The notes below the pieces were generated by a model. It was given only the letters and a program-made list of their open reading frames with translations. It did no database searches and was not told the DNA's origin. 64,000 bases of DNA from a virus (lineage: Duplodnaviria; Caudoviricetes): IMG/VR virus record IMGVR_UViG_3300020477_000013, positions 64,001 through 128,000 of that record. One strand, written 5' to 3'. This document shows, piece by piece, positions 6,006 through 54,431 of the stretch (position 1 is the first letter of the stretch; every line of letters begins with the position of its first letter). The translations under genes were made by a program, and so were the position numbers.

Positions 6006-7202
6006 ATGGCTAGAACTAAGAAAAACCAAAAAGGGATGGACGATTTTACCTCTGACCTGATAAGCTCTCTAAATAAAGAACATGGTGCAAAAATTGCATA
6101 TAATCTTGCTTATGATGTTTCTCCTACACATGTGAAGAGATGGATAAGCACAGGCTCACGTCAGCTTGATTACATCGTGTCAAATAGAGAAAACGGCGGC
6201 CTTCCAGAGGGTAGAATTGTTGAAATATTTGGCCCCCCGTCAATCGGCAAGTCACATCTTGCAATACAGGTGGCTCGATCGACACAACAGTTGGGGGGTA
6301 TTGTTGTATATATTGATACAGAGAACGCGACAAGCGTAGAAAATCTTTCTTTGTTAGGCGTCGATATTAGTAAAAGGTTTGTTTATGTCGACACCCACTG
6401 TACGGAGGAGGTTTTGTCTATTGCTGAGGCAACCATAATGAAAGCCAAAGCCATGGACAAAGATGTTCCTATTACAATTATTTGGGACTCTGTTGCTGCA
6501 TCCTCACCCAAGGCAGAACTAGTTGGTGATTATGATAAAGACTCCATAGGACTACAGGCCCGCGCTATATCAAAGGGTATGCGAAAGATTACGGGTGTGA
6601 TTGCAAACCAGAATGTTTTGTTTGTGATTTTGAATCAGATACGAACAAAGATTGGCGTTATGTTCGGAGACCCGACGACGACGCCAGGAGGAAAGGCAAT
6701 TCCTTTTCATTCTTCTGTGAGAATTAAGCTGGGTGCAGGGCAGAAGATAGAAAATAAAGAAAAAGAGGTTGTTGGAATTCACGTTTCAGCAAAGACAATA
6801 AAAAACAAGGTATCACCACCCTTTAGGTCCGTGGCTTTTGAAATTCACTTTGGTAAAGGGATCAAGGAGCATGAGCAGATATTTGATCTTCTGAGAAAGA
6901 ATGGTCCTGAGATTATTGGGGGAGAAGAAATTTCCATCTCAGGCGCTAGCGCATGGAAGTGTATTACCGTGTCAAATGCTGAGACCGGTGAGGTAAAACT
7001 AGAGAAGAAATTTCACAAAGCAGACTTCCAAGAGATTATAGACGATAATGTCTTTGGTCCGTATGTCGATGCTATGTTAGGGAAAGTGTTTATAAGATCT
7101 AGCGAGTCACCAGCAGATGTGGAGCTTGACGTCAACTCTTATGAAGAGGTAAGGTCTATATCTATTGATATGAAAGATGAGCTAATTGATCCGGAGGGAT
7201 GA
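6006..7202 (+). CDS. recA: RecA/UvsX recombinase
   Basis: Walker A GPPSIGKS; YIDTEN; IIWDSVAA; LNQIR; TTPGGKAIPFHSSVRI. Confidence 0.95.
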   Translation: MARTKKNQKGMDDFTSDLISSLNKEHGAKIAYNLAYDVSPTHVKRWISTGSRQLDYIVSNRENGGLPEGRIVEIFGPPSIGKSHLAIQVARSTQQLGGIVVYIDTENATSVENLSLLGVDISKRFVYVDTHCTEEVLSIAEATIMKAKAMDKDVPITIIWDSVAASSPKAELVGDYDKDSIGLQARAISKGMRKITGVIANQNVLFVILNQIRTKIGVMFGDPTTTPGGKAIPFHSSVRIKLGAGQKIENKEKEVVGIHVSAKTIKNKVSPPFRSVAFEIHFGKGIKEHEQIFDLLRKNGPEIIGGEEISISGASAWKCITVSNAETGEVKLEKKFHKADFQEIIDDNVFGPYVDAMLGKVFIRSSESPADVELDVNSYEEVRSISIDMKDELIDPEG

Positions 7203-8166: not shown

Positions 8167-9555
8167 ATGAAATCAGAAATTATTAATTCATCGACAGCGA
8201 ATTTCAGTCAATATGGTAAGGTGTTTCAAGAGAAAATTTTCCAAGGCTTATTAACCGACCATCGGTGGTCAGCCCAGATGTTCGAGGTGATGAAGCCTGA
8301 TTTTTTTGATGTAAAATCGTTAGCATATCTCACAATGAGATATTTCTCATATTACGAGAAATATAAGTGTTTTCCCACAATGCCTTTGCTTATAACGATT
8401 ATCAAGGAGGACTTGGGAAACAGCGATGACGCTATCTTAAAAGATCAAATAGTCGAATTCCTGTATCGGATTAAAATGAATCCTGATATGGGTGATATAG
8501 AGTATGTTAAAGATAAGTCGCTCGATTTTTGTAAGAGGCAGGCTTTTAGAGATGCTCTAGAGCAAGCTGTAGAGTTAATCCAGACAGATAAATTTGAAAG
8601 TGTTGTAGGGTTAATGAAAGAAGCAGTCTCTATTGGCCTTCCCCATAACACAGGCCATGATTTCTTTGAAGATGCTGATGCTAGGTTTATAAAGATTAAC
8701 AGGCAGGTTTGCCCTACAGGAATAAATCGCCTAGATGCAAAAGATATTTTGAACGGCGGCCTAGGTAGGGGAGAAATAGGCGTTGTCACCGCAAATACCG
8801 GTGTAGGAAAATCTCATTGGCTAGTTGCCATGGGTGCAAATGCAATGAGGGTTGGGAAAAACGTACTACATTATACCTTTGAACTATCAGAGCATGCAGT
8901 CGCGTTAAGGTATGATTCTAACTTGTGCGGAATTCCTAGCAACGAAGTTCAAGATCATAAAGAAGAAGTTTTAAAAAGATATGAGGGATTGGAGCTTGGC
9001 AGGCTTATAATTAAAGAATACCCTACTGGGTCGGCATCTTCTGTTACGATAAGGAATCATATCGAGAAATTAATGCTGCGTGGATTTATGCCTAGCTTAA
9101 TTGTTATTGATTATGCCGATATTATGAGATCTACCAAGAGCTATGATTCTTTGAGACATGAGTTGAAATTAATTTACGAAGAGCTTAGAAATTTATCCAT
9201 GGATTTAAATGTGCCGATTTGGACGGCTTCACAAGCCAACAGGGACTCAGCGAATTCAGAGATAGTTGGGCTTGAGAACATGTCTGAGGCATATGGAAAG
9301 GCGATGGTCGCAGATGTTGTTGTGTCTTTGTCTCGTAGGGCGATGGAGAAATCGACGGGGGCAGGAAGATTATTTGTCGCGAAAAATCGGGCTGGAAAAG
9401 ATGGCCTCGTTTTTCCTGTTCACATTGACACATCACGATCTATAATCAAGATAGTTGACGAGTCAGAATTGACGCTGCGGGAGGCAACACAAAATGATGA
9501 AAGCGAATTGAAGGCTATGCTTAAGAAGAAGTGGAAGGAAGTAAGCAAGATATAA
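8167..9555 (+). CDS. Replicative DnaB-family helicase (T4 gp41-like)
   Basis: Walker A ANTGVGKS; HYTFE; VIDYADIM; WTASQANR; KNRAG. Confidence 0.93.
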   Translation: MKSEIINSSTANFSQYGKVFQEKIFQGLLTDHRWSAQMFEVMKPDFFDVKSLAYLTMRYFSYYEKYKCFPTMPLLITIIKEDLGNSDDAILKDQIVEFLYRIKMNPDMGDIEYVKDKSLDFCKRQAFRDALEQAVELIQTDKFESVVGLMKEAVSIGLPHNTGHDFFEDADARFIKINRQVCPTGINRLDAKDILNGGLGRGEIGVVTANTGVGKSHWLVAMGANAMRVGKNVLHYTFELSEHAVALRYDSNLCGIPSNEVQDHKEEVLKRYEGLELGRLIIKEYPTGSASSVTIRNHIEKLMLRGFMPSLIVIDYADIMRSTKSYDSLRHELKLIYEELRNLSMDLNVPIWTASQANRDSANSEIVGLENMSEAYGKAMVADVVVSLSRRAMEKSTGAGRLFVAKNRAGKDGLVFPVHIDTSRSIIKIVDESELTLREATQNDESELKAMLKKKWKEVSKI

Positions 9556-9574: not shown

Positions 9575-12061
9575 ATGTTTAAATTTGAGGAAGCTGTCAG
9601 AGAATCTTCTGAGTATTTTTGTAATGACGAACTAGCTGCGAACGTTTTTATTACGAAATATGCTCTTACTGACAAGCACGGTAATTTGCATGAAAAGACA
9701 CCTGATGATATGCATCGCCGTTTAGCACGTGAATTTGCACGAGTAGAATCTACCTACCCCAACCCACTAAGCGAAGAAGAAATATATGGATTATTTAAAG
9801 ATTTCAGGTTTATAATCCCGCAGGGTTCTCCCATGTCGGGAATAGGAAACCCGTATCAAGTTCAGTCAATTTCTAACTGTTTTGTAATTGAGTCTCCGCA
9901 CGATTCATATGGGGGAATTCTCAAGGCAGATCAAGAGCTAGTCCAGATAGCAAAGAGAAGGGGAGGTGTGGGATTCGATCTTTCCACGATTAGACCACAT
10001 GGAGTCGCGACTGCAAACTGTGCAAAGACGACTGACGGTATCGAGGTATTCATGGACCGTTTTTCAAATTCATGTCGTGAAGTTGCACAAAATGGTCGCC
10101 GCGGCGCCTTAATGCTTTCAATCTCTGTCCATCACCCCCAGATTTGTGATTTTATAAAAATCAAGCGTGATCTAACTAGGGTGACTGGTGCAAATATTTC
10201 TGTTCGCCTATCTGACGAGTTTTTGAATGCCGTCGAGGCCGGTACCGATGTTGAGTTGAGGTTCCCTGTCGACAGTAAAGAGCCATTGATATCTAAGAAT
10301 GTAGATGCATTAGAGCTGTGGGATCAAATTATCGAGAATGCTCATGCATGTGCTGAGCCTGGCCTTTTGTTTTGGGATACTGCGACATCTATGACACCAT
10401 CTGATGTGTATAAAGATGAAGGTTTTGGTTCTACCTCAACTAACCCATGCGGTGAAATTATCCTGTCACCGTATGATAGTTGCCGGCTCATGGTGGTTAA
10501 CCTATTGTCTTTTGTTGATAATCCGTATACCGATAATGCAAGTTTCAATTATGAAAAAATGGCCGAAGTAGTCCAGAAGGCACAGAGACTAATGGATGAC
10601 ATGATTGACTTGGAGGTAGAGCAAGTTGAAAAGATACTTACGAAGATTGACATGGACCCTGAACCTGACGAGGTAAAACAGATTGAAAAAGACTTGTGGG
10701 AAAATATTAAGACTCAGGCAATCTTAGGTCGTAGAACAGGCCTAGGCGTAACAGCAGTAGGAGATGCCCTTGCTGCTTTAGGTATTCGATATGGGTCTAG
10801 TGACTCTATTGAGGTTGTAGAGTTATTTTATAAAACCCTGGCTGTGAATGCTTACCGCTCTTCTTGTATTATGGCAAAAGAGCGCGGTTCTTTTGAGATG
10901 CACGATCATAACAAAGAAAGAAACCACCCTTTTTTAGAGCGGATATTTGAGGCTGCACCTGACGTTAGAGAGATGAGTAAAAAATATGGTCGCAGAAATA
11001 TTGCTCTCACTACAACTGCACCTGCTGGATCTGTGTCCGTTTTGACCCAGACTACATCAGGGATCGAGCCGGCTTTTATGCTCCACTATACACGCCGCAA
11101 GAAGCTAACTGAAAATGATGCAGATGGCCGTGTGGATTTTGTCGATGAGAGCGGTGATCGATGGCAAGAGTATAACGTCTACCACCATGGGTTTAAGAAG
11201 TGGATGGAGGCCTTTGGCGCTGGTGGAGATGAGGCCACGAATAATGAGAAGCTTGTCGAGATGAGCCCGTATAACGGTGCAACTGCAAATGAGATAGATT
11301 GGGTTGCGAAAGTTAAGATGCAGGCTGCGGCTCAAAAATGGGTTTGTCATGCGATTTCTAATACAACAAATCTACCAGCAGATGTTGACATAGAGACAGT
11401 AAAGGACGTTTATTTAACTGGATGGAAGTTAGGGTGCAAGGGAGTAACTGTCTATAGGGACGGATCTAGGGCTGGTGTTCTTGTGGGCGCTAGCAACGAG
11501 TCCGGAAGTGAATTTACGACGCAAGAAGCTCCATCTCGCCCTGATGAGTTAAAATGCTCTATTCATCATGCTAGTATTAAGGGTGAGGCATGGACAATAT
11601 TGGTCGGGCTCATGGATGGGCGTCCGTATGAGGTTATGGGGGGCCTGCAGAAATATATCGAAATACCCAAGAAATACAGGAAAGGTACAATTATTAAGCA
11701 TCATTACAAGACAAAAAATTCCCGCTATGACCTACGTATAGGAAAGAATGGTGATGAAATTTTGATTAAAGATATAGTCTCGGTGTTTGATAATCCTAAC
11801 CATGCAGGATTTACAAGGACGATATCGCTAGCTCTTCGGCATGGTGCACCCTTGCAATATATCGTAGAGCAGCTTCAAAAAGACAGGGAAATGGATATGT
11901 TTTCGTTCTCCCGTGTCATTGCCAGGGTTTTGAAAAACTATATCAAGGATGGTACGCTTCCGGGTAAGACGACTTGTTCAAATTGTGGTGCAGAAGAGTC
12001 GCTAGTGTATCAAGAAGGGTGCGTAATGTGTACTGCCTGTGGCAGCGGTAAATGTGGGTAA
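9575..12061 (+). CDS. nrdJ: Class II (B12-dependent) ribonucleotide reductase with C-terminal Zn ribbon
   Basis: SNCF; TNPCGEI; RRTGLG; TTAPAGS; CKGVTVYRDGSR; CSNC...CTAC. No nrdB nearby. Confidence 0.92.
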   Translation: MFKFEEAVRESSEYFCNDELAANVFITKYALTDKHGNLHEKTPDDMHRRLAREFARVESTYPNPLSEEEIYGLFKDFRFIIPQGSPMSGIGNPYQVQSISNCFVIESPHDSYGGILKADQELVQIAKRRGGVGFDLSTIRPHGVATANCAKTTDGIEVFMDRFSNSCREVAQNGRRGALMLSISVHHPQICDFIKIKRDLTRVTGANISVRLSDEFLNAVEAGTDVELRFPVDSKEPLISKNVDALELWDQIIENAHACAEPGLLFWDTATSMTPSDVYKDEGFGSTSTNPCGEIILSPYDSCRLMVVNLLSFVDNPYTDNASFNYEKMAEVVQKAQRLMDDMIDLEVEQVEKILTKIDMDPEPDEVKQIEKDLWENIKTQAILGRRTGLGVTAVGDALAALGIRYGSSDSIEVVELFYKTLAVNAYRSSCIMAKERGSFEMHDHNKERNHPFLERIFEAAPDVREMSKKYGRRNIALTTTAPAGSVSVLTQTTSGIEPAFMLHYTRRKKLTENDADGRVDFVDESGDRWQEYNVYHHGFKKWMEAFGAGGDEATNNEKLVEMSPYNGATANEIDWVAKVKMQAAAQKWVCHAISNTTNLPADVDIETVKDVYLTGWKLGCKGVTVYRDGSRAGVLVGASNESGSEFTTQEAPSRPDELKCSIHHASIKGEAWTILVGLMDGRPYEVMGGLQKYIEIPKKYRKGTIIKHHYKTKNSRYDLRIGKNGDEILIKDIVSVFDNPNHAGFTRTISLALRHGAPLQYIVEQLQKDREMDMFSFSRVIARVLKNYIKDGTLPGKTTCSNCGAEESLVYQEGCVMCTACGSGKCG

Positions 12062-12082: not shown

Positions 12083-12685
12083 ATGAAGTGGGTTTCCAAA
12101 ATATCAGGTTTAATAAAAGAGATAGAGTTAAGAAAAAGCCCGGTGATTATTAGGGTTAATAAATTCGATGAAGAGTCTGCAAAGAAATTTTCACAAGAGA
12201 TGGCATTAGCACATAATACTGGGCAAAAAGTTATTCCCGTTGTAATTGATTCTTACGGGGGCCAAGTTTATTCACTTATGTCAATGATAGCTGCTATTAG
12301 AGATGCTGAGATTCCTGTTGCGACTATAGTCGAAGGAAAGGCGATGTCTTGCGGTGCAGTGCTGCTATCTTTTGGGGAAGACGGATTACGGTTTGCTGAT
12401 CCCCATGCAACGGTAATGATACATGATGTCTCTAGCGGGATGTATGGAAAGGTCGAGGAGCTCAAGGCCGATGTTAAAGAGGCTGAAAGGCTAGACGAAA
12501 AGATATACACAATGATGGCACGAAACTGTGGTAAGAAAGATGACTATTTCAAAAAGAAGGTCTTCAATAAAAAACATGCAGATTGGTTTATGGACGCTGA
12601 AGAAGCAAAGCGTCATGGCTTAGTTAACCACTTAAGGATACCAAAGCTTACAATTGCTGTCGATGTCAGTATAGAGATGGAGTAG
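12083..12685 (+). CDS. clpP: ClpP-family protease
   Basis: IDSYGG; GKAMSCG (Ser); VMIHD (His); MDAEEAKRHGLV. Confidence 0.88.
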   Translation: MKWVSKISGLIKEIELRKSPVIIRVNKFDEESAKKFSQEMALAHNTGQKVIPVVIDSYGGQVYSLMSMIAAIRDAEIPVATIVEGKAMSCGAVLLSFGEDGLRFADPHATVMIHDVSSGMYGKVEELKADVKEAERLDEKIYTMMARNCGKKDDYFKKKVFNKKHADWFMDAEEAKRHGLVNHLRIPKLTIAVDVSIEME

Positions 12686-14329: not shown

Positions 14330-17300
14330 GTGAGTTCAGAATTTGCTAGTCTCATAAGAAAATATATTGCAGAAGCCAATGATTATTCATGGGATGTTTC
14401 TAACCGCAAAAATATGTTGCTAGATCAACCTGGGATGGAGCAGGAAGATAAGGATAACACTGAGGAGTACCTAAAGTCAATGGGCTTGATGGAAAATATC
14501 ATCGCTCTTTACTTAAGGGGTATTTTAAGTGAGAAAGAACTACGCGGCCAAAAGAGCAAGCGTACACTCTACCACATTGGCAAACGACCAGCAGAGCCGA
14601 AGCCTGCTGAGCGCTGGGGTGCAAAAGGTGAGGAGGGCTGGTCTAGAGACTGGATAGAGGGCCCTGTTAAGTCTGGAGTTTTTTTAACACCCAATCCAAC
14701 AGATATTGCCTGGAATCACGGCGTCAGCGGCAATGTGTATGCCTATAAGGTTCCACAATGGGTTATTGAAAAATCAGGAGGTGTGAACCGTTTTGATACA
14801 GGCTCAGAGATCCTCATATCACAAGAGATATGGGAAGAGGCTGGGGATGAGATAGAATTCTTAGGCAAGACTATGGGCAAAGATGAGTTATGGGACTCGG
14901 TTGACTCGTCTTATTACAGCTCGAAGCAAAAGAAGGGTGTACGTGGCGCACACAAGCATGATGACGGTGCATCTAGCATCTCAGGGCTTAGATCAACCAA
15001 CCACCCCGAAGCTGCGATCAAGATGATGTCTCAAGAAGAGATCGAGAAAGCCCTAGCAAAATTTGAAAATGAGTACGCACAGGAGGGCCCTGCGGAGGTG
15101 GTCAAGGGCCCGCGAGATAAAAAAGGGCTCGTCATCCCCTACCTTGGCAAGCAACCAAGGGGTAAAGACAAAGAGCTTATTGATCTTCTCAACAAGTACA
15201 TGAAGGAGTCGGTTGTTCGACAGTATATAAAGGATCTGCTTGTAGAGGTCCCACTTGATGACTTTGAGTATGTTTCCAAAGACCACGACGATGTAATGGT
15301 CCGAGAAGAGGTTGCTGATTATTTCAAAGCGATACCACAGAGTGTCAACATCTACGTCGCACATACAGACGATCTTAGCTGGGCACATAGGCTGCCAAAC
15401 GAAATACAGGGCAAGGTATCCGGATTTAAAAGTCGAGGCCAGGTCACCCTTACTGATATTTCAAACATCGGAGAGCTATATCCTCAGATACAGAGGGCTA
15501 TGCACCCAGAAGGAATCAATCTTCTCTACGTCTACCCTAAATCTTTTGAAGTTCCTGCCGGCGGTGATACATTCATTGCTGATGTCAACCCCCACTATTT
15601 GGCTCACGATCTTCATCACATGCTTGAGAATGCCCCCGGCCGTGAAAGAGGAGAAAAAGACAAATTCACTTCTCTTATAAAAGAGTATCTGATGGAGCTG
15701 GTCTGGCTGTCTCACGGTGGCGGGTCGGTGGAAGCTGAGCAAGTGCGAGATACAATGCGGAGAACCGGCCGGCGTCTTGGGGTTGCAAATACAAACCTCT
15801 TGATGAGTGAACTGTTTCCAGGCATCAAACTACCCAGTGGTGACTTCGATCTATTTGGTGATGTCTTTGCTGACTACCTGAAGAACGATGGAAACTTAGT
15901 CCTCGGCGTTCCAGAGCAGCTCGATTATGATGGCACAGTCATTGAATTGAATCCCGGCTCTAAGCACGATCAACGAGCGCAGCAATACGAAAAGAAATTT
16001 AAAGATCTGTTCAATGCAGTATTGGATCCGCTCAAGGGAAAGGTGGCAATGTTCAACATCTTCGAGGTCGAACACCGCGAAGTAGAGCGTGCAAGGAAAC
16101 AAGCCGAAGAGAAAATGCAAGCTGACCATGGCCAACTCATCGACCACATTAAGTCTATGGGCGGAGAGTTTAAGTACTTCGACGAAAGCCACAGAGAAGA
16201 GGGTGTCGAGGAGTTGATATTTGACACCGGTCTCAAGCCTGAAAAGCCGGTCTATGGGATCGAAGAGTTCACCCAACAATTTCCAGAAGAGGCGGCTGGC
16301 ATTGAGGCTTTGGGCTACAAGATAACGAGTGCCTTTGACGGGTTCGGGGGTAGCTCTGTGGAGATTAGGCTGAAGATGGCAGGCATCAAAGAGAGCGTTT
16401 TAAGAAAATATATAAGGCAACTACTCAAAGAAGACCCCATGGGCTTTGTTCACGACCTAGCAGCCTCGGATAAGTTCGGCGATCAGTTTAGGGGTGGCCA
16501 AGTTGGTAAAGATGCTGGTCGAGATATCAAGCGCGCTTTCAACAAAAACGCAGACCACCAATTTCTCAGCACGCTGGATACAGTTCACTGGTTTTACACT
16601 GTTTACGACTTAGAGCCCTTGGTAGGAAAAGGTAAAGATGAACTTTCTGCAACAATGACGCTCCCCGGAGATAGCTTTGACCCAGCCGGTCTTCCATACG
16701 GGCTATGGATTAAGGGCAGAATAACACTGGCTACTAATGAACAAGATAAGATGTACTCCGGATTTTATGGGGACTATGGCGCCGGCTATGAAGGATCAGA
16801 AGAGGAAGTTGCTCATAGAGACCGGTCTTCTGGCAGAAATAAACGGCCATCTGTATCAAAAGATTACAGTCGATACGGCCAGCTCGAACGCGGAAATGAA
16901 TACATGGAGAAGATGGCAAGAGATGGTATTCCCTATATCTTAGATCAGTCAACATGGAATCCAGGTAAGACCAGGTCTAATAATGAGGCGCTGGTAGATA
17001 ATTGGAGGCCTATAGGGATCATTGTTGCAAAGAACGACGTTATAAAAGCTATTCTCAAAGCAGCCAAGAAACTTGCTGGAGAAGGTGGTACCCCACCGAG
17101 CGGTAATATTGCCAAAGACATTAATTATTTTTCGACTGGTGTGACACAAGAGATCATACTAGCAGCCCTACAGTTGGGCGTTCCGATTTATGACACGAGT
17201 CGAACAAAGCTATGGGGCCCTCCCACACACCAGAGTGGAACACAAAAAGAGCTCCGCCAGTACGTAAGAGGGCAGTTAATTTTAGAAGATCGAATCCTCC

Positions 17301-17644
17301 AAGAAAACGTTTTCAAGAAAGCGATTTCATGGGTAAAAGAAAAAGGGCAAGCAGGTATAGAGGCAACCCGCGAATTTCTCACTGACCTAAAAGAAGAGTT
17401 ATCAGAAACTAGGGAGGGAGCAGCACTTCTTACGAAACTAGCTTCTGGTAAAAATTTGTCGCCAGAAGAAACTGGATTTCTAAAACAGCAAGCTAAAGAT
17501 GTAGCGTCAGGTACAGTCCTACTAGGCTTGTTTGCCCTTCCGGGTGGTGGGTTGGCTACTGCAGCCCTTTTAAAAGTAGCAGGAAAAGTAGGTGTTAACC
17601 TTAAACCTACAGCATTTAGAGGGAATGATGAAACTACTTCATGA
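14330..17644 (+). CDS. Multidomain putative polyprotein with four internal leader-like motifs (ART-like, HDxxH, ART-like and LETM1-like segments)
   Basis: Motifs at 14489, 15200, 16367 and 17243 separate unrelated domains. The GTG at 14330 is preferred as start because it gives SLIRKYIAE. Confidence 0.8.
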   Translation: MSSEFASLIRKYIAEANDYSWDVSNRKNMLLDQPGMEQEDKDNTEEYLKSMGLMENIIALYLRGILSEKELRGQKSKRTLYHIGKRPAEPKPAERWGAKGEEGWSRDWIEGPVKSGVFLTPNPTDIAWNHGVSGNVYAYKVPQWVIEKSGGVNRFDTGSEILISQEIWEEAGDEIEFLGKTMGKDELWDSVDSSYYSSKQKKGVRGAHKHDDGASSISGLRSTNHPEAAIKMMSQEEIEKALAKFENEYAQEGPAEVVKGPRDKKGLVIPYLGKQPRGKDKELIDLLNKYMKESVVRQYIKDLLVEVPLDDFEYVSKDHDDVMVREEVADYFKAIPQSVNIYVAHTDDLSWAHRLPNEIQGKVSGFKSRGQVTLTDISNIGELYPQIQRAMHPEGINLLYVYPKSFEVPAGGDTFIADVNPHYLAHDLHHMLENAPGRERGEKDKFTSLIKEYLMELVWLSHGGGSVEAEQVRDTMRRTGRRLGVANTNLLMSELFPGIKLPSGDFDLFGDVFADYLKNDGNLVLGVPEQLDYDGTVIELNPGSKHDQRAQQYEKKFKDLFNAVLDPLKGKVAMFNIFEVEHREVERARKQAEEKMQADHGQLIDHIKSMGGEFKYFDESHREEGVEELIFDTGLKPEKPVYGIEEFTQQFPEEAAGIEALGYKITSAFDGFGGSSVEIRLKMAGIKESVLRKYIRQLLKEDPMGFVHDLAASDKFGDQFRGGQVGKDAGRDIKRAFNKNADHQFLSTLDTVHWFYTVYDLEPLVGKGKDELSATMTLPGDSFDPAGLPYGLWIKGRITLATNEQDKMYSGFYGDYGAGYEGSEEEVAHRDRSSGRNKRPSVSKDYSRYGQLERGNEYMEKMARDGIPYILDQSTWNPGKTRSNNEALVDNWRPIGIIVAKNDVIKAILKAAKKLAGEGGTPPSGNIAKDINYFSTGVTQEIILAALQLGVPIYDTSRTKLWGPPTHQSGTQKELRQYVRGQLILEDRILQENVFKKAISWVKEKGQAGIEATREFLTDLKEELSETREGAALLTKLASGKNLSPEETGFLKQQAKDVASGTVLLGLFALPGGGLATAALLKVAGKVGVNLKPTAFRGNDETTS

Positions 17645-22134: not shown

Positions 22135-22655
22135 ACCTATTACGTGAGTACATAAGGGAGTTATTAGGTGAAGGTGTAGAATTCAGGGAGCTTGATTCTC
22201 CCCTGACATATTATCGATCTAGCAATGTAAAGAGACTGGCTTTATGCGATACGTCTGTAGATGAACCTGCCAGCAGGAGTGATCTTTACTTTTCAGAATA
22301 CCAAGAAATGGAATACGTCGGCAGATCTGGTCGAAGATTAAAGAAACCCAGGAAAGGACAGTTGATACCCGGCGTTTCTGATGTCTGCGTTATTGGGTTC
22401 TTGGACTATCACCAGCAAGGCACCACCCGTGATGGTAAGCCAATGTGGTATTTAGACTATATAAAAACTCGTGGAGGCCACGGTGGGCAAAAGGTGGCTA
22501 GCCGTCTAGTAGACGAGTTTTTCAATCGATATGTAACCGATCCAGGTGTACACGTACACTTCGGAAAGATGATGCGTAAGGAGGTTGGCCACCTAAAAGA
22601 TAAGATGGCAAAGAAATACCCTGACAACATCGTCATTGGGGCAAGGAATTACTGA
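22131..22655 (+). CDS. Leader-tagged GNAT-like protein
   Basis: MNLLREYIRELLGE; VIGFLDY...WYLDYIKTRGGHGGQKVASRLV. Confidence 0.55.
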   Translation: MNLLREYIRELLGEGVEFRELDSPLTYYRSSNVKRLALCDTSVDEPASRSDLYFSEYQEMEYVGRSGRRLKKPRKGQLIPGVSDVCVIGFLDYHQQGTTRDGKPMWYLDYIKTRGGHGGQKVASRLVDEFFNRYVTDPGVHVHFGKMMRKEVGHLKDKMAKKYPDNIVIGARNY

Positions 22656-23473
22656 TGAACCTACTCCGCGAATACATAAGATCACTTCTGGTTGAAGACG
22701 CAGCTAAGCGCAAACAGTTCGCTCAACACCTTATTGATGCAGGTCACTCTGAGGCAAATTTTGACACGCCTGATGTAGTCGGCCACAGTATTGACAAGGT
22801 GAAGAAGCTCGTTAAGACTGCTCTCGATCAAGGCAAGCTTCTCAAAAAGGCTTTCGCCGAAACTGCAGACAGGGCTTTCCTCGATAGCTTAGTCACAGTT
22901 CACTGGTTCAAAACCAGAAAGACGATGGAGGCATTTTTAGAAGGATCATTTAGTCCCAAGGATGAATTATCAGCCACGGCTTACCTACCGGGTGAAATAA
23001 AAGGCGCCGGCAGGTTTGGTGATTATGGAATCCTTATCAAGGGCCATATCACTCTTTTGGCAAACGACATGGATCAACTCTACACAGGGGCTTCCAGCAC
23101 TTACAATGCAGTGTTTCCTGAAAGAAAGAAGCAGTCTGGCATTAACAAGGGTGTCGAGCAGATATATGAACCAAAAGGTTACGAAGACTATAAGATCGTT
23201 GTGCTTGACGAAGAAGATTGGAACCCCTCTATTGGTGGCTTCCGCAGCTCACAGAATAATGAGGCGCTCGTCGACAACTGGTCTCCGATGGCAATTATCG
23301 TCCCTGACTCTTCAAATCAGCCAGGTTACTGGGATGAAGATTTACAAAAGATGGAACCTGCCGGCCCTGATACAGCGGAAGCCGATATCATTTGGAAACC
23401 GCTACTAGACAAGGCCGGCCTGGATATCCCAGTTATGACAACAAGGGAGCTTGTATCGAGAGGCTGGGTATAA
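22655..23473 (+). CDS. Leader-tagged ART-like protein, paralog of segment 4 of the 14330 protein
   Basis: MNLLREYIRSLLVE; TVHWF...KDELSA...IKGHITL...NNEALVDNW. Confidence 0.7.
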   Translation: MNLLREYIRSLLVEDAAKRKQFAQHLIDAGHSEANFDTPDVVGHSIDKVKKLVKTALDQGKLLKKAFAETADRAFLDSLVTVHWFKTRKTMEAFLEGSFSPKDELSATAYLPGEIKGAGRFGDYGILIKGHITLLANDMDQLYTGASSTYNAVFPERKKQSGINKGVEQIYEPKGYEDYKIVVLDEEDWNPSIGGFRSSQNNEALVDNWSPMAIIVPDSSNQPGYWDEDLQKMEPAGPDTAEADIIWKPLLDKAGLDIPVMTTRELVSRGWV

Positions 23474-29554: not shown

Positions 29555-32500
29555 TTGGGTAAGACACCGAAGAAGTTTGTTGGGATGCATGCTCATGATG
29601 GATTTTCTACGTTCGATGGTTTAGGATATCCACAAGAGCATATAGATTTTGTAAAAAGTAATGATATGGACGCGTGGTGCTTGACAAACCATGGCCATAT
29701 GAATAGTTTTTGCCATGCATATTTGCATGCTGAAAAGTTAAATAAGGCTGGCGGAAATTTTAAGTTTGTCGCAGGTTGTGAGATGTATGTACATCCCGAC
29801 TTAGATGCCTGGCGCTTAGACTATGATATTCGCGCAGCAGCAAAGAAGGGTGACAAGGAGGCGTTGTTTAGGCTTCGCGATGAGAGGGAGAAGCTTATAA
29901 CGCCTATTACGATGAAGGTTGATGCCGATGATGAGACCCTAGATATATCCACCGATGAAGCTAGTCTTACAATCGAGAATGAGGAAGAAACGAAGTCCGG
30001 AAAATTTTACGACCCCATTAAGAGACGCCATCACTTAGTTGTTTTGCCAAAAACCTCCGAAGGCTTAAGGAGGTTATTTCACCTGGTGTCTAGAGGTTAC
30101 CTGGAGGGATTCTATAGGTTTCCACGTATTGACTATAAGATGTTAAAAGAGGCCGCCCAGGGTGGCCACCTGATGGTGTCTACCGCATGTCTAGGTGGGC
30201 CCTTGGCATATGAAGTTTTTCGTCACTTACAAGAGGTTGAGTTTGATTCACTGGATCCTAAGTGGATGGATGATCCGTCACTACAACAAAAGATATTAAA
30301 TGGCGTCTCAAATTCTTATGGTCAGTTGGCCGATGCGGTGGGTAAAGAGAATGTGTATGTTGAACTACAGTTTAATCACCTTGTTGCCCAACATCTAGTC
30401 AATAGGGCTCTCATTCAATTTGCAAATAATGAGGGCATGCAAGATAAGCTTGTAGTTACATGTGATTCTCACTATGCGCATCCTGAACACTGGAAAGAAC
30501 GTGAATTGTATAAAAAGCTGGGGTGGTTAAACTATAGGGAGTTTGATCCGTCAAAACTACCTCAGTCCAAGGAAGAGCTTAAGTGTGAGCTATATCCTAA
30601 AAACGCACAGCAGGTGTGGGAATCTTACATTAATACAACTAAAGAGTATGATTTCTATGACGATGATATAATTTGTGATGCCGTAGAGCGGACATATGAC
30701 ATTGTTCATGACGAAATTGGAGACATTCATCCAGATAAGTCTATGAAACTCCCAGATTATGTTGTTCCAGCTGGTAAGAGTGATGATAGGGCCCTGTTGG
30801 ATATGTGTAAGGAGGGATTAATTGATAGAGGTTTAGCAGATAAGCCTGAATATATAGACAGGCTAAAGAAAGAACTCTCCGTCATTAGGGAAAAGAAATT
30901 TTCAAAATATTTCTTAACGATGAAAGCTATCATGGATCTTGCCAGAGGTCATATGCTGGTCGGGCCCGGCCGTGGATCAGCTGCCGGCAGTTTGGTAGCA
31001 TATGTTTTATATATCACCAATGTTGACCCGATCGAATATGGGTTACTTTTTGAGCGTTTTCTGAGCGTTCATAGGCAGGGTGCACCTGACATTGATTCCG
31101 ATGTCGGGGATCGTGATAAGCTGATTGATCTGCTTAAAGAAAATTTCGGTGATAATAATATCGTACCAATCTCAAATTATAATACATTTAAACTTAAGTC
31201 ATTAGTCAAAGATATTTCTAGGTTTTACGGAATTCCATTTGATGAAGTCAATAAGGCACTAGCTCCTGTTGAGAATGACGTTAAGAAAGCTGTCTTTAAG
31301 AAAGGGACAGACAAGAACCTCTTTACTCTCTTGTATGAAGATGCAATTAAGTACAGCAAGTCATTCCAGGATTTTATTGAGAAATATCCAGAGATTGCAG
31401 AACCTATTGAGGTGCTATTTAAGCAAAATAAAGCCCTAGGCAGGCATGCAGGAGGAGTAATAGTCTCAGAAAATGTAGCTGAGCAGATGCCCTTGATCAT
31501 GGCTCGTGGCGAAATTCAGACACCCTGGGTAGAGGGTATGCACTACAAGCACCTCGAGGAGCTAGGATGGATTAAATTTGACCTCCTCGGCCTTGAGACG
31601 TTGCGCATCATTGAGAGATGCATAGCATTGATTCTACAGCGCCACGAGGGCCATGAATCACCCTCCTACTTGAATGTCAAAGAGTGGTTTAACGATCATA
31701 TGGATCCGAAGGTGATTGATTTTGATGACCAGCAGGTTTATGAGAAAATCTACCACGCTGCAAGATGGGCAGGTATTTTCCAGTGTACCGCAAGGGGAGC
31801 ACAAAATTTCTTTAAGAAAGGAAAGCCCTGTAGCATTATTGACATTGCAACGCTTACATCAATTTACAGGCCCGGGCCTCTTACCGCCGGCGTGCATGAC
31901 ATATATTTAGGTGCAAAATCTAATCCAGATGATGTCGACTATAAACACCCTCTTATTAAGCAGGTGCTTGAGCCTACATACGGTGCCATTATTTTTCAAG
32001 AGCAAGTTATGGAGCTATGTAATGTAGTAGCCGGATTCCCTCAAGAGGACTGTGACATGGTTCGCCGCACAATCATGAAAAGATCAGCATCAAAAGCTGA
32101 TGCCATGAAAAAGCAGGCCATGGAACTTAAGCAGAGGTTTGTTGATGGTGCAGTTTCAAACGGCGTTCCTTCACATGTTGCAGATGAGCTATATGACAAG
32201 ATCATGTTTTTCTCAGGATATGGCTTCAATAAGTCTCATGCTGTTTCATATGCGATTGACTCCTATTATTGTGCATGGCTTATGACGTACTATGAAGAGG
32301 AGTGGCTGTGCGCTTATTTGGAGGCAATGTCTAATAATCCCACGAAGCGTGCAAAGGCATTTAGCGAGATAAAGAAATTAGGATATAAGGTCGTACCTAT
32401 CGATATCAATTATGCTACTAAGAGCTGGACTATTCTGGAAGGCAAAAAATTTATGCCCTCGTTTTTATCTTGCAAGGGCGTCGGCGAGGCAGCTATTGAC

Positions 32501-33154
32501 GAGATTATTGAGGAACGCCCTTACAAGCAGGTGGATGATCTGTTATGGAATGATGTGGGAAAGTGGAAGCACTCTAAATTTAATAAGAGAGCACTTCAAA
32601 ATTTAATCAAGGTTCGTGCCTTTGGCTCTATGGATCTCGTTGGTGAAGGAAAGACTTTTTCTTCTTATTCACAAATGCATGAAATTTTAATAGAGAATAA
32701 TTCGTCTATTAAAAAATGGACAAAGCGAGATCCTGATAGGGGTAGAAATGCATTTCGAGAATGCCTAATAGAGACTGCTGGTATGCAAGAATGGTCCAAG
32801 ATGACGTTAGCAACCCACAGCGTTGATATAATGGGATCTTTCAATGCAGGTATGGTAGTTTCAGATGAGCTTCAAGACAAGTTGTCGGCTCGAGGTATTA
32901 ATTCCATCGATGAAATAGAGGGTAGGGATCTCTACTGGTTCGTCGTGACTGACATGAAGACAAAACTAACAAAACATAAAAAGCCTTATTTGCTTCTAAC
33001 AGTTACAGGTATTTCAGGAGGTAATTACAGGCTTTTTTGTTGGGGATGGAATGGAAAGCTTGAAATTCCCCAATACTCCCTGTGTGTAGCTGAAGTCGAT
33101 AAAAATGACTTTGGGTGTTCAACGCAACAAAGAAAGATAAAAGTTTTGAACTGA
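29555..33154 (+). CDS. dnaE: DNA polymerase III alpha subunit (family C)
   Basis: PHP HAH..S..DG, TNHG, GCE, CDSHY; GRGSAAGSLVAY; PDIDSD; GRHAGG; KFDLLGL; YGFNKSHA. Confidence 0.96.
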   Translation: MGKTPKKFVGMHAHDGFSTFDGLGYPQEHIDFVKSNDMDAWCLTNHGHMNSFCHAYLHAEKLNKAGGNFKFVAGCEMYVHPDLDAWRLDYDIRAAAKKGDKEALFRLRDEREKLITPITMKVDADDETLDISTDEASLTIENEEETKSGKFYDPIKRRHHLVVLPKTSEGLRRLFHLVSRGYLEGFYRFPRIDYKMLKEAAQGGHLMVSTACLGGPLAYEVFRHLQEVEFDSLDPKWMDDPSLQQKILNGVSNSYGQLADAVGKENVYVELQFNHLVAQHLVNRALIQFANNEGMQDKLVVTCDSHYAHPEHWKERELYKKLGWLNYREFDPSKLPQSKEELKCELYPKNAQQVWESYINTTKEYDFYDDDIICDAVERTYDIVHDEIGDIHPDKSMKLPDYVVPAGKSDDRALLDMCKEGLIDRGLADKPEYIDRLKKELSVIREKKFSKYFLTMKAIMDLARGHMLVGPGRGSAAGSLVAYVLYITNVDPIEYGLLFERFLSVHRQGAPDIDSDVGDRDKLIDLLKENFGDNNIVPISNYNTFKLKSLVKDISRFYGIPFDEVNKALAPVENDVKKAVFKKGTDKNLFTLLYEDAIKYSKSFQDFIEKYPEIAEPIEVLFKQNKALGRHAGGVIVSENVAEQMPLIMARGEIQTPWVEGMHYKHLEELGWIKFDLLGLETLRIIERCIALILQRHEGHESPSYLNVKEWFNDHMDPKVIDFDDQQVYEKIYHAARWAGIFQCTARGAQNFFKKGKPCSIIDIATLTSIYRPGPLTAGVHDIYLGAKSNPDDVDYKHPLIKQVLEPTYGAIIFQEQVMELCNVVAGFPQEDCDMVRRTIMKRSASKADAMKKQAMELKQRFVDGAVSNGVPSHVADELYDKIMFFSGYGFNKSHAVSYAIDSYYCAWLMTYYEEEWLCAYLEAMSNNPTKRAKAFSEIKKLGYKVVPIDINYATKSWTILEGKKFMPSFLSCKGVGEAAIDEIIEERPYKQVDDLLWNDVGKWKHSKFNKRALQNLIKVRAFGSMDLVGEGKTFSSYSQMHEILIENNSSIKKWTKRDPDRGRNAFRECLIETAGMQEWSKMTLATHSVDIMGSFNAGMVVSDELQDKLSARGINSIDEIEGRDLYWFVVTDMKTKLTKHKKPYLLLTVTGISGGNYRLFCWGWNGKLEIPQYSLCVAEVDKNDFGCSTQQRKIKVLN

Positions 33155-53102: not shown

Positions 53103-53132
53103 CAATACCTGATTATATAAGGAGCATTGCAC

Positions 53133-54431
53133 ATGGGAGCCCTAGCAGGTCATCTAAGTCATTTACAAGAGAACCTTGATTTCACCTTTGGCGAACTTAA
53201 GTCGATCCTTTCAAGCATTGTTTCTGGGGATACACCGGTTGTCGAAAAAGTTGATGGCCAAAATATATTCTTTTCTTTTAGCGTCGATCCTACGACAGGT
53301 GCTGTAAGAACTGCAAGAAACAAGGGCGACCTCGCAAAGGGGGGAATGACCCCGGACGAGTTTTCCTCAAAATGGGAAGGTCATCCTGCACAAGATGCAT
53401 TTATGAATGGCTTTAACGCAATCGAGGCCGGCCTGTCCGGCATAGGTGGTTCAACCCTTAAGACAATCTTTACTCCACAAAACGAGGGAGGTAAGAGATT
53501 CATTAATGCGGAGATTGTTTACACCGGGAACCCGAATGTCATCAACTATGGCGGTGATTATATTGTAATGCATAACCTGCAAGAGTTTGATGAAGCAGGA
53601 AAGTTAACTGACATTCAGCTGCAGGGTGGAGATTTTGCCTCTCTAGTGAGTGCTGTTGAATCTGCACAGCAGGATGCTGATGCCAAGGGATGGGCTGTGA
53701 TAGGTCCTCAAGTGGTAGAACTGCAGGACTTGAGTATGTCCGATATTTTAGAGAGTGTCAATGCCGGCATCGATTCCTTGGGCATTTCTGATAGTATGAC
53801 ATTAGGCGACTTCGTAGCAGAAAAACTCCGCATCGGAAAGGTAGGTAATTTGCCTATTTCTGTTAATAAGCAGGAAGACTTAATTCGTAGGATTATTGAA
53901 ATTGGCCAGGGGGTAGAGTCAAAAGACCTCCCTCCGTTAGCCGACATCAAGAAAGGCCTTCCTAAAGATGTACAGAAGCAGATTAGCTCTATGGCCACGC
54001 AGGCAAATGCCATGAAGGTGATTGGGGCTATTCTTGCACCTGTAGAGTTAGTTATCCACAATCTTGCTGTTGAGGTCCTCCGTGGGCTTTCCTCTGCCCT
54101 TTCTGGCGGTCATGATGAAGAGATTTCGCGACTGAAGTCTGAATTAGATACCGCAGTAGAAAAAATTAATTCCGCTAAAGATTCTAAGAGTGATGCTAGG
54201 CGTGAGATGCTAAAGAAGCAATTGGATAAATTAGGTTCTTCTAAAAATATTTCATCTAGTATGGAAGGAATTGTGTTTGAGCATCCACCGGGCAGTAAGT
54301 CGCTTTACAAGCTAACTGGTGCTTTCGCACCCCTAAATCAGATTATCGGTGCCTCTTATCGGATTCCAAAGGTTCAGAATGAATCTCTACTACGTAATTA
54401 TGTAAGGGAATTTATGGGTGGGTTGATGTGA
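53133..54431 (+). CDS. ATP-dependent ligase / nucleotidyltransferase-like protein (KxDG) with C-terminal tag
   Basis: VEKVDGQN; RNKG; NAEIV; EGIVF; YKLTG; C-terminal NESLLRNYVREF; RBS AAGGAG. Confidence 0.7.
   Translation: MGALAGHLSHLQENLDFTFGELKSILSSIVSGDTPVVEKVDGQNIFFSFSVDPTTGAVRTARNKGDLAKGGMTPDEFSSKWEGHPAQDAFMNGFNAIEAGLSGIGGSTLKTIFTPQNEGGKRFINAEIVYTGNPNVINYGGDYIVMHNLQEFDEAGKLTDIQLQGGDFASLVSAVESAQQDADAKGWAVIGPQVVELQDLSMSDILESVNAGIDSLGISDSMTLGDFVAEKLRIGKVGNLPISVNKQEDLIRRIIEIGQGVESKDLPPLADIKKGLPKDVQKQISSMATQANAMKVIGAILAPVELVIHNLAVEVLRGLSSALSGGHDEEISRLKSELDTAVEKINSAKDSKSDARREMLKKQLDKLGSSKNISSSMEGIVFEHPPGSKSLYKLTGAFAPLNQIIGASYRIPKVQNESLLRNYVREFMGGLM

What the first reader, a model, noticed from the sequence alone, without database searches (positions are those of the whole stretch)
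14330..17644. 1100-aa putative viral polyprotein with leader motifs as internal domain linkers
The tag recurs inside one ORF at the boundaries of unrelated segments: MENIIALYLRGILSE (14489-14533), MKESVVRQYIKDLLVE (15200-15247), RLKMAGIKESVLRKYIRQLLKE (16367-16432) and QKELRQYVRGQLILEDRILQE (17243-17305). The segments are an ART-like LYH...GVFLT...EILI domain, an HDLHH-containing domain, an ART-like paralog of 22655 and a LETM1-like tail. At 16367 the C-type tag (LKMAGIK) runs directly into a B-type tag. Inference: formerly coupled cassettes fused and are re-separated by the head protease. The same logic applies to 18419, 20786 (TLRE between domains) and 54428 (RLLRKLVRESLILEE).
Basis: partly seen in the sequence, partly recalled or inferred. 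Interest (0 to 1): 0.85.

Follow-up and report, generated by a model that had tools for sequence, protein, structure and literature searches.

The report
Phage cargo polyprotein with tag linkers
A 1104-residue gene of an uncultured marine T4-type giant phage strings together four unrelated enzyme-like modules, each preceded by the same short 'address tag' ending in Leu-x-Glu that starts dozens of other genes of this phage, so it is most likely a chain of capsid-packaged proteins that the phage's head protease cuts apart.

Summary
ORF 14330-17644 (1104 aa) carries an N-terminal leader and four internal leader copies at exactly the stated coordinates. That clustering is far beyond chance.

The window lies in a 201.6-kb viral record that encodes a T4 gp21-type prohead protease. 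Its major capsid protein keeps an L-x-E|A site where T4 gp23 is cut.

Across about 180 relatives, each segment (M1-M4) occurs in two forms. It is either a stand-alone 'leader + module' gene, or it is fused in at least 15 different orders and combinations with other effector-type domains. Homology always starts right after the leader's Glu. In 66 M2 and M3 junctions, P1 is E in 94% and P3 is L/I in 94%.

A DNA breakpoint against a close relative falls inside an internal leader. The internal leader is conserved at protein level but not at synonymous sites.

- M1 and M3 have ADP-ribosyltransferase-like folds, but the matches are weak (Z about 6).
- M2 is unresolved.
- M4 is weakly LETM1-like.

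Shuffling and fusion of tagged cassettes is shown. Packaging and cleavage by the head protease are inferred, not shown.

Verdict: a new variant of the T4 capsid-targeting / internal-protein system, of clear interest. Other first-stage notes on this same genome describe the same tag system.

The parts
14330..17644 (+). Whole ORF (1104 aa from GTG 14330; TTG 14300 is an alternative start). It is a chain of leader-tagged modules.
   Evidence: The identical protein is on record from 3 contigs, the longest 288 kb.
14330..14374 (+). N-terminal leader, residues 1-15, ending ..KYIAE|A. This is close to the T4 IPII/IPIII capsid-targeting sequence, which ends ..EFIAE|A.
14375..14488 (+). S0: a short acidic 38-residue element between leaders 1 and 2. 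It recurs ahead of a leader in relative P0026.
14489..14533 (+). Internal leader 2, ending ..GILSE|K (E68). An L-M-E site also sits at its start (E55).
14534..15199 (+). Module M1, residues 69-290. Its N-terminal 120 residues have an ADP-ribosyltransferase-like fold, followed by a helical tail. Near-invariant features: LYH, GVF, SE(I/V)LI.
   Evidence: Model pLDDT 81.9. VIA Z 6.3-5.5 to MbcT, ParT, RES and TreTu; Z about 4-5 to diphtheria toxin. Foldseek rows are enriched in ART, PARP and DarT entries. Alignment of 90 sequences.
15200..15247 (+). Internal leader 3, ending ..DLLVE|V (E306). The DNA homology breakpoint against relative L002 lies at 15210-15224, inside this leader.
15248..16384 (+). 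Module M2, residues 307-685. Fold unknown. Invariant AHTDD and HYxAHDLHHxxE motifs suggest a metal site.
   Evidence: No match in Pfam, PHROGs, PDB or the Atlas.
16385..16432 (+). Internal leader 4, ending ..QLLKE|D (E701). It is the best-scoring internal copy (21.3 bits). It starts with Ile, not Met. An I-K-E site sits at its start.
16433..17242 (+). Module M3, residues 702-971. It has a CteC-like ADP-ribosyltransferase-like fold and is a paralogue of ORF 22655-23473.
   Evidence: Model pLDDT 88.9, pTM 0.87. CteC is the top match: Foldseek E 4.7e-3 and VIA Z 6.4 over 166 residues, with the next match at Z 4.5. Paralogy.
17243..17305 (+). Internal leader 5, with two tandem L/I-x-E sites: ..LILE|D (E986) and ..ILQE|N (E992). 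Relatives whose gene ends with M3 stop just before this point.
17306..17641 (+). Module M4, residues 993-1104. It is basic and helical with a Gly-rich hydrophobic stretch. In relatives it occurs as a stand-alone 127-147-aa gene behind three different leader families. It is faintly LETM1_RBD-like.

Best explanation
The ORF is a chain of capsid cargo.

The tag. The phage is an uncultured marine T4-type jumbo phage. It marks proteins destined for the inside of its head with a 13-16-residue amphipathic leader ending in L/I-x-E. This leader is the counterpart of the T4 capsid-targeting sequence. More than 40 genes in the 201-kb record start with it.

The fusion. In this gene, four such 'leader + cargo' cassettes (M1-M4) and a short element (S0) are fused in frame, and each leader is kept as the linker.

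Proposed steps:
1. The precursor docks on the scaffolding core through its leaders.
2. When the gp21-type prohead protease is activated, it cuts after the Glu of each leader (E15, E68, E306, E701, E986 and/or E992).
3. This releases about 27, 45, 32 and 12 kDa proteins that stay in the head and enter the host with the DNA.
4. At least two of them (M1 and M3) are ADP-ribosyltransferase-like enzymes that modify host targets.

The leader also serves as the recombination joint by which cassettes are swapped, fused and split between related phages.

Shown: the tags and their positions, modular shuffling at the tags, the presence of the protease, and the motif match.

Inferred: docking, cleavage, packaging, ejection and enzymatic activity.
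For: 1. A T4 gp21-family protease is encoded in the head module. It scores 92 bits against PF03420 and is 33% identical to T4 gp21, E 3e-24.

2. The capsid protein keeps ..VLRE|AN.. at the place where T4 gp23 has ..FLTE|AE... T4 gp23 loses 65 residues there (PMC9958956).

3. T4 gp21 cuts after Glu in I/L-x-E: Alt at ITE-6 and LTE-619 (PMC5694885). In the 10-residue T4 targeting sequence, residues 8 and 10 govern processing (PMC9026906). T4 IPII and IPIII start with a 10-mer ending ..FIAE|A. This ORF starts with a 15-mer ending ..YIAE|A.

4. Genes beside the protease also start with leader-like peptides, and the scaffold-like gene starts with a peptide ending ..AIAE|A.

5. Each module occurs alone behind an N-terminal leader and also inside multi-module proteins. 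There are at least 15 architectures. Partner domains include PolyA_pol, PAP2, Zeta toxin, HD, Fic and 2H-SAK+SET.

6. Homology begins at the residue after the leader's Glu. For M2, 17 of 17 junctions have P1 = E and P3 = L. For M3, 45 of 49 have P1 = E and 45 of 49 have P3 = L/I.

7. The same cargo modules sit behind a different leader family (MKLILENWRKYLxE) in another phage, where four neighbouring genes share that tag. The tag therefore goes with the phage lineage and not with the cargo.

8. The core of the internal leader shows 5 synonymous changes and 1 conservative change against a relative. The 4 residues just upstream are all replaced.

9. The DNA breakpoint against relative L002 lies inside leader 3.
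Against: - There is no proteomic, structural or biochemical evidence that any of these proteins is in a virion or is cut.
- The gene lies among replication and nucleotide-metabolism genes (ThyX, RNR, ClpP), about 40 kb from the head module. T4 IP and alt genes are also scattered (from my own knowledge of the T4 map; only ipII and ipIII were located here).
- L/I-x-E sites are not enriched in the ORF as a whole: 16 observed against 13.9 +/- 3.4 expected. The motif alone is therefore weak evidence.
- More than 40 tagged genes would be an unusually large cargo set for one head.
- The ART assignments rest on middling scores (Z about 6; Foldseek E 5e-3 to 0.5).
Confidence: 0.55

Rival explanations
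1. The ORF is an uncleaved polyvalent protein. The leaders are only helical spacers or docking helices between domains, and the 125-kDa protein acts as one multi-enzyme polypeptide, whether or not it is packaged.
For: Multi-domain effector proteins of 2-15 domains are common in phages (PMC5512222). The M1 core also sits in giant Topo-IB/HAD_SAK/2H proteins that lack these leaders. In giant phages, some regions that are removed as propeptides in related phages stay attached without harm (PMC5694885).
Against: The Glu at the last leader position is almost invariant, and the module boundary falls exactly after it. A spacer would not need either feature. The same peptide is the N-terminus of more than 40 single-domain proteins. 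The tag changes with the phage lineage and not with the domain.
Confidence: 0.2
2. Cleavage happens but by another protease. Candidates are the ClpP-family protease encoded two genes upstream (12083-12685), or self-processing by M2, whose invariant HDLHH..E motif could be a zincin-like site as in the metallopeptidase domains of polyvalent proteins.
For: A ClpP gene is present (PF00574, 105.7 bits). Autoproteolysis by embedded metallopeptidases has been proposed for polyvalent proteins (PMC5512222). M2 has conserved His, Asp and Glu clusters.
Against: ClpP is not known to recognise a defined L-x-E site (established knowledge of the Clp family). M2 is absent from most tagged proteins and from many multi-module relatives that still keep the leaders. 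M2 has no detectable peptidase homology. The motif matches the gp21 family, which is present.
Confidence: 0.1
3. The internal leaders are neutral scars of leader-mediated recombination that fused neighbouring cassettes. They have no function as peptides.
For: Tag DNA is repeated at cassette junctions, and the breakpoint against a relative lies inside a leader. Cassette order differs between close relatives.
Against: The internal leader pattern persists in junctions whose modules are only 40-55% identical. It shows synonymous but almost no amino-acid change in its core. Scars should decay.
Confidence: 0.1
4. The internal leaders mark internal translation starts, so the modules are made as separate tagged proteins from one mRNA without proteolysis.
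For: Leaders 2 and 3 begin with ATG. T4 gene 21 has an internal start (annotation).
Against: Leader 4 begins with ATC and leader 5 with CAA. No Shine-Dalgarno sequence stands in front of any of them. In relatives the first leader residue is M, K, V, I, N or T.
Confidence: 0.05

Closest known systems
T4 internal proteins IPI-III and Alt with their capsid-targeting sequence, processed by the gp21 prohead protease
   Same: A short N-terminal amphipathic propeptide ending in I/L-x-E is shared by otherwise unrelated proteins. The protease is of the gp21 family. One cargo class is ADP-ribosyltransferase-like, as Alt is. The cargo set varies between related phages (PMC3012670, PMC9026906, PMC5694885).
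   Different: T4 has about five such proteins, each a single cargo with one tag. Here more than 40 genes carry the tag. In this ORF the tag recurs internally, four times, between unrelated cargoes. The tags are longer (13-16 aa) and come in subtypes. Nothing here has been shown experimentally.
Ejection and inner-body proteins of giant phages (phiKZ, 201phi2-1, SPN3US) processed at several sites by a gp21-related protease
   Same: Many head proteins are cut after Glu at a short motif. Propeptides hold several redundant sites. There is a large mass of ejected protein (PMC5694885, PMC9026906).
   Different: Those motifs are S/A/G-x-E, not L/I-x-E. The cuts remove propeptides; they are not described as separating unrelated enzymes joined by a repeated address tag. 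This capsid and protease are nearer to T4 and 'far-T4' phages.
Polyvalent proteins of phages and conjugative elements (Iyer, Burroughs, Anand, de Souza, Aravind 2017, PMC5512222)
   Same: Several unrelated effector-type domains sit in one polypeptide, in variable order. The domain repertoire overlaps: ART, Zeta toxin, 2H/SAK, HD, PAP2, Fic. They are thought to be delivered with the DNA.
   Different: That paper proposes release of domains by embedded metallopeptidase domains. In the passages I searched it does not mention a repeated capsid-targeting or cleavage tag between domains. No MuF or recognised peptidase domain is present here.
Polymorphic toxin cassettes such as CdiA-CT after the VENN motif and Rhs tips after the DPxGL motif (from my own knowledge, not tested here)
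   Same: A short conserved motif marks the border between a constant delivery part and variable cargo. It doubles as the recombination joint for swapping cassettes and is, in Rhs, a cleavage site.
   Different: These are bacterial secretion systems, not phage heads. They carry one cargo per protein and have immunity genes. There is no sequence relation.

Membership tests
T4-type capsid-targeted internal head proteins | The genome encodes a gp21-family (Peptidase_S77) prohead protease in the head gene cluster | tested here: met
   PF03420 at 92.3 bits, genome 30362-30787. 33% identity to T4 gp21, E 3e-24. It lies between the portal and capsid genes.
T4-type capsid-targeted internal head proteins | A short N-terminal propeptide ending in I/L-x-E, shared by otherwise unrelated proteins | tested here: met
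   44 ORFs of the record start with the leader. This ORF starts with a peptide ending ..YIAE|A; T4 IPII and IPIII start with one ending ..FIAE|A.
T4-type capsid-targeted internal head proteins | The protein is present in the prohead core or virion, and the propeptide is removed by the protease | not testable with these tools
   There is no cultured phage and no proteome. The docking attempt gave no answer.
T4-type capsid-targeted internal head proteins | The protease specificity (L/I-x-E) is retained in this phage | tested here: inconclusive
   The capsid protein has ..VLRE|A.. at the position aligned with the T4 gp23 site ..FLTE|A... This is consistent, but cleavage was not observed.
Polyvalent proteins (PMC5512222) | Two or more unrelated effector-type domains in one polypeptide of a phage, recurring in variable combinations | tested here: met
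   M1-M4 are mutually unrelated. Relatives show at least 15 architectures. Partner domains are listed.
Polyvalent proteins (PMC5512222) | A hallmark packaging or processing domain (MuF, zincin-like metallopeptidase) | tested here: not met
   No Pfam or PHROG family matches any segment. The HDLHH motif of M2 is unassigned.
ADP-ribosyltransferase superfamily (modules M1 and M3) | ART fold | tested here: inconclusive
   M1: VIA Z 6.3, 6.0, 5.7, 5.5 and 5.5 to MbcT, ParT, VPA0770, RES and TreTu over about 100 residues. M3: CteC at Z 6.4 over 166 residues, with the next match at 4.5, and Foldseek E 4.7e-3. The matches are consistent in kind, but Z is under 8.
ADP-ribosyltransferase superfamily (modules M1 and M3) | A catalytic triad (H-Y-E or R-S-E) in the right strands, and NAD+ use | not tested
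   M1 has near-invariant H14, invariant E92, and aromatic positions. M3 has near-invariant H52 and E185 and invariant S133-G134, with S132 near-invariant. Their placement in the fold was not checked, and activity cannot be tested here.
LETM1 ribosome-binding domain (module M4) | Significant match to PF07766 | tested here: not met
   The query segment itself has no match. 3 of 21 family members match, best E 8.9e-4, below any curated cut-off. This is a resemblance only.

The most novel reading that the evidence does not exclude
A lineage of marine T4-type jumbo phages uses one short peptide as address tag, protease site and recombination joint at once. This lets dozens of host-modifying enzymes be loaded into the head either singly or as self-resolving polyproteins, and be reshuffled freely between phages. 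It would be a combinatorial 'injected arsenal' on a scale about ten times that of T4.
Probability: 0.45. Interest if true: 0.85.

Novelty: new variant of a known kind. Interest (0 to 1): 0.66.

Why it matters
If the leaders are real targeting and cleavage units, three things follow.

1. The T4 capsid-targeting principle, known from a handful of proteins in one model phage, would be a general and scalable loading system in abundant uncultured ocean phages. Polyproteins would be one way to load several enzymes from one precursor.

2. It would give a simple sequence rule (tag ending in L/I-x-E) for predicting the injected proteome of such phages from metagenomes.

3. It would flag hundreds of unknown protein families as candidate host-takeover or anti-defence effectors: 528 clusters at 50% identity relate to this one ORF.

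It would also offer natural, portable tags for packaging foreign proteins into phage heads.

Tried and rejected
- No nucleotide or protein match to the ORF in 50,697 GenBank phage records.
- Pfam and PHROGs gave nothing for any of the four segments.
- Profile searches of M1, M3 and M2 against PDB sequences gave nothing usable.
- ESM Atlas look-ups for M2 gave no usable hit. The Atlas's own model of relative P0049 is poor, with pLDDT 0.46. M2 stays unassigned.
- Mixed alignments of several modules against a two-module query (A2, A3) were misaligned, because the repeated leaders mis-anchor MAFFT. I discarded them and folded M1 and M3 singly. As a result, no model contains a linker, and the helical nature of the leaders is inferred from their heptad-like pattern only.
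- Complex prediction of the protease with the 45-residue M2/M3 junction peptide returned 'no answer' (score 0.02). This is neither support nor evidence against.
- Contigs for the alternative-leader protein P0057 were too short to be informative.
- The internal-initiation reading was rejected: there are non-ATG first codons, no SD, and the residue is not conserved.
- The 'C-type tag' was rejected. It is the conserved end of M2.
- Overall enrichment of L/I-x-E in the ORF was not found.
Full report
WHAT IS THERE

The window is bases 64001-128000 of a 201,585-base viral record, estimated 73% complete. Relatives' contigs reach 284-288 kb. Almost all genes are on the + strand.

ORF 14330-17644 is one open frame of 1104 residues from GTG 14330. 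The identical protein is on record from three contigs, so the long frame is not an assembly accident.

I built a position matrix from the nine N-terminal B-type leaders of this genome. It scores the internal copies at 21.3, 12.5, 9.4 and 9.0 bits. Shuffled proteomes give 4.35 hits at 8 bits or more across all 266 ORFs. Four such hits in one ORF are far beyond chance.

THE TAG IN THE GENOME

At least 44 ORFs of the record begin with a related leader. There are two main forms:
- A type, ..QLRRIIKE.
- B type, ..LREYIRxLLxE.

A variant..ESV(I/L)RxY(I/V)RxLLxE, is the usual internal form. It also starts ORF 2939. All forms end in L/I-x-E.

An internal perfect A-type leader occurs in a 551-aa ORF outside the window. 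Two-cassette proteins are therefore not unique to this gene.

THE PHAGE

The record encodes a T4 gp21-family prohead protease. It scores 92 bits against PF03420 and is 33% identical to T4 gp21, E 3e-24. It lies between the terminase and portal genes on one side and a gp23-type capsid gene on the other.

The capsid protein's nearest cultured relatives are Flavobacterium phage immuto and Microcystis phage Mel-JY01, at about 48% identity.

The capsid protein has ..LLENQAGQVLRE|AN.. where T4 gp23 has ..IFENQ...FLTE|AE... That T4 site is where the 65-residue propeptide is removed (PMC9958956).

Genes next to the protease start with leader-like peptides, and the scaffold-like 597-aa gene starts with a peptide ending ..AIAE|A. 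T4 IPII and IPIII start with a 10-mer ending ..FIAE|A. The ORF under study starts with a 15-mer ending ..YIAE|A.

In T4, the first ten residues suffice for capsid targeting, and residues 8 and 10 govern processing (PMC9026906). Alt is cut at ITE-6 and LTE-619 (PMC5694885).

THE SEGMENTS ARE INDEPENDENT, MOBILE MODULES

A word-indexed search found 30 relatives. An exhaustive search found 528 clusters at 50% identity.

BLAST mapping shows four modules:
- M1, residues 69-290
- M2, residues 307-685
- M3, residues 702-971
- M4, residues 993-1104

These modules:
- occur alone as small genes, each with the leader at the N-terminus (for example P0039 for M3, P0033 for M2, P0117 and P0126 for M4, P0031 and P0042 for M1);
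- occur fused in many orders (M2-M1, M2-M3, M3-M2, X-M1-M2-M3, M1-M2-X, X-M1-M3 and others);
- are combined with poly(A)-polymerase-type nucleotidyltransferase, PAP2, Zeta-toxin/AAA_33 kinase, HD, Fic, and 2H-SAK plus SET domains. The M1 core also appears in giant Topo-IB/HAD_SAK/2H/LigD-phosphoesterase proteins.

In every junction, the homology starts at the residue after the leader's Glu. Over the wider set, M2 junctions have P1 = E and P3 = L in 17 of 17. M3 junctions have P1 = E in 45 of 49 and P3 = L/I in 45 of 49.

In the 284-kb relative L002, M1 and M2-M3 are two separate genes 2.5 kb apart. At DNA level, window 14514-15210 matches one gene and 15224-17221 matches the other. The breakpoint lies inside internal leader 3, at 15200-15247. 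Homology to the relative's M2-M3 gene ends at 17221, just before leader 5. M4 is therefore an added cassette.

The segments do occur as separate genes and cannot form one integrated fold.

THE TAG BELONGS TO THE PHAGE, NOT TO THE CARGO

The same M1, M3 and M4 modules are found behind a different leader family, MKL(I/L)xENWRxYLxE. On contig L009, four consecutive genes share that other tag, and their cargoes include M3-like and M4 modules.

A tag that changes with lineage while cargo is exchanged is what an address for a lineage-specific assembly machine would look like.

SELECTION ON THE INTERNAL TAG

At the M2/M3 junction, I compared the window with L002:
- The 12-codon leader core shows five synonymous changes and one conservative change.
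- The four codons just upstream are all non-synonymous.

The internal tag is therefore kept as a peptide and not as a DNA repeat.

The first residue of internal leaders is M, K, V, I, N or T. In this ORF, leader 4 starts with ATC and leader 5 with CAA, and none is preceded by a Shine-Dalgarno sequence. This argues against internal initiation.

L/I-x-E also occurs at the start of leaders 2 and 4 (LME55, IKE688). The leader peptide could therefore be excised by two cuts, but this is speculation.

WHAT THE MODULES ARE

M1:
- The model (pLDDT 81.9) has an N-terminal alpha/beta domain.
- Its best structural neighbours are all ART-superfamily proteins: MbcT Z 6.3, ParT 6.0, VPA0770 5.7, RES 5.5, TreTu 5.5. 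Diphtheria toxin, cholix toxin, PARP16 and DarT follow lower in the list.

M3:
- The model has pLDDT 88.9 and pTM 0.87.
- The ubiquitin-modifying ART CteC is the top match by both methods: Foldseek E 4.7e-3; VIA Z 6.4 over 166 residues, with the next match at 4.5. Tpt1, an NAD-binding Salmonella effector and DarT are below it.
- M3 is a paralogue of ORF 22655.

These scores are middling, so 'ART-like' is a reasonable but unproven label.

M2 has invariant AHTDD and HYxAHDLHHxxE motifs but no detectable relative of known fold.

M4 is a small basic helical protein with a Gly-rich hydrophobic stretch. Three of 21 family members touch Pfam LETM1_RBD, best E 8.9e-4. The query itself does not.

MECHANISM AND RIVALS

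The best-supported reading is that the ORF is a precursor of several capsid-packaged, ejected proteins, with these steps:
1. The leaders bind the scaffolding core.
2. The gp21-type protease cuts after each leader Glu.
3. The released modules travel with the DNA.

Shown:
- the tags,
- the modular shuffling at the tags,
- protein-level conservation of the internal tags,
- the presence of the protease,
- conservation of an L-x-E|A site in the capsid protein.

Inferred:
- docking,
- cleavage,
- packaging,
- ejection,
- enzymatic activity.

Rivals, with my confidence in each:
- an uncleaved polyvalent protein with helical spacers (0.2);
- cleavage by another protease, such as the ClpP homologue at 12083-12685 or M2 itself (0.1);
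- neutral recombination scars (0.1);
- internal translation starts (0.05).

A docking attempt between the protease and a junction peptide gave no answer and counts neither way.

COMPARISON WITH WHAT IS KNOWN

The logic is that of the T4 internal proteins and Alt (PMC3012670, PMC9026906). It is also close to the multi-site processing of ejection proteins in phiKZ-like phages (PMC5694885). The domain syntax is that of polyvalent proteins (PMC5512222).

What I did not find is the use of the targeting/cleavage tag as a repeated linker between unrelated cargoes. It is absent from the papers I read and from a full-text search. The scale also differs: more than 40 tagged genes against about five in T4.

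I class this as a new variant of a known kind.

Other first-stage notes on this same genome describe the tag arrays and the tag DNA as a recombination platform. My tests agree with them where they overlap, but those notes are not independent evidence.

Noticed in passing
window 12083-12685 (+): A ClpP-family protease gene (PF00574, 105.7 bits) sits two genes upstream of the polyprotein, among replication and nucleotide-metabolism genes. It is a second phage-encoded protease of unknown role.
   Followed up: partly
window 29555-33154 (+): A DnaE-type DNA polymerase III alpha (PHP, NTPase, finger and HHH domains) is present in a phage whose capsid and prohead protease are T4-type. RecA (6006-7202), a DnaB-like helicase (8167-9555) and a ribonucleotide reductase large-subunit homologue with a C-terminal TSCPD domain (9575-12061) lie nearby.
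   Followed up: partly
window 53127-54431 and 54428-56449 (+): ORF 53127 ends in a leader-like peptide (..ESLLRNYVREF..) and is overlapped by the start of ORF 54428, which itself begins with a leader. ORF 54428 has a further internal leader at about residue 552 (..LVRESLILE). This looks like a junction where two cassettes are not, or no longer, fused.
   Followed up: no
genome G000:C1:153296-154951 (outside the window): A 551-aa ORF has an A-type leader at its N-terminus and a perfect second copy at residue 235. It is a two-cassette polyprotein in the A-type array.
   Followed up: no
L009:7189-10826: In another uncultured phage, four consecutive genes start with a different shared leader, MKLILENWRKYLxE. 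Their cargoes include M3-like and M4 modules, and a ThyX gene lies nearby, as in this window.
   Followed up: partly
window 17592/17625-18422 (+): The next gene overlaps the 3' end of the polyprotein. It starts with a B-type leader and carries an HExxH motif with a weak SprT-like match (E 8.6e-4, below the cut-off). It may be a zincin-type cargo.
   Followed up: no
window 14375-14488 (+), and P0026 residues about 315-345: A short acidic element (S0, ..GMEQxDKDNxExYLKSMGL..) precedes a leader both here and inside an unrelated relative. Its role is unknown.
   Followed up: no
P0007 residues 674-695: A relative's protein ends with a complete internal-type leader followed by only three residues. 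This may be a broken fusion or a tag left without cargo.
   Followed up: no
genome G000:C1:35707-37638 (outside the window): The gp23-type capsid protein has 643 residues against 521 in T4, with a long unaligned stretch between residues about 125 and 340. This is probably an inserted domain.
   Followed up: no
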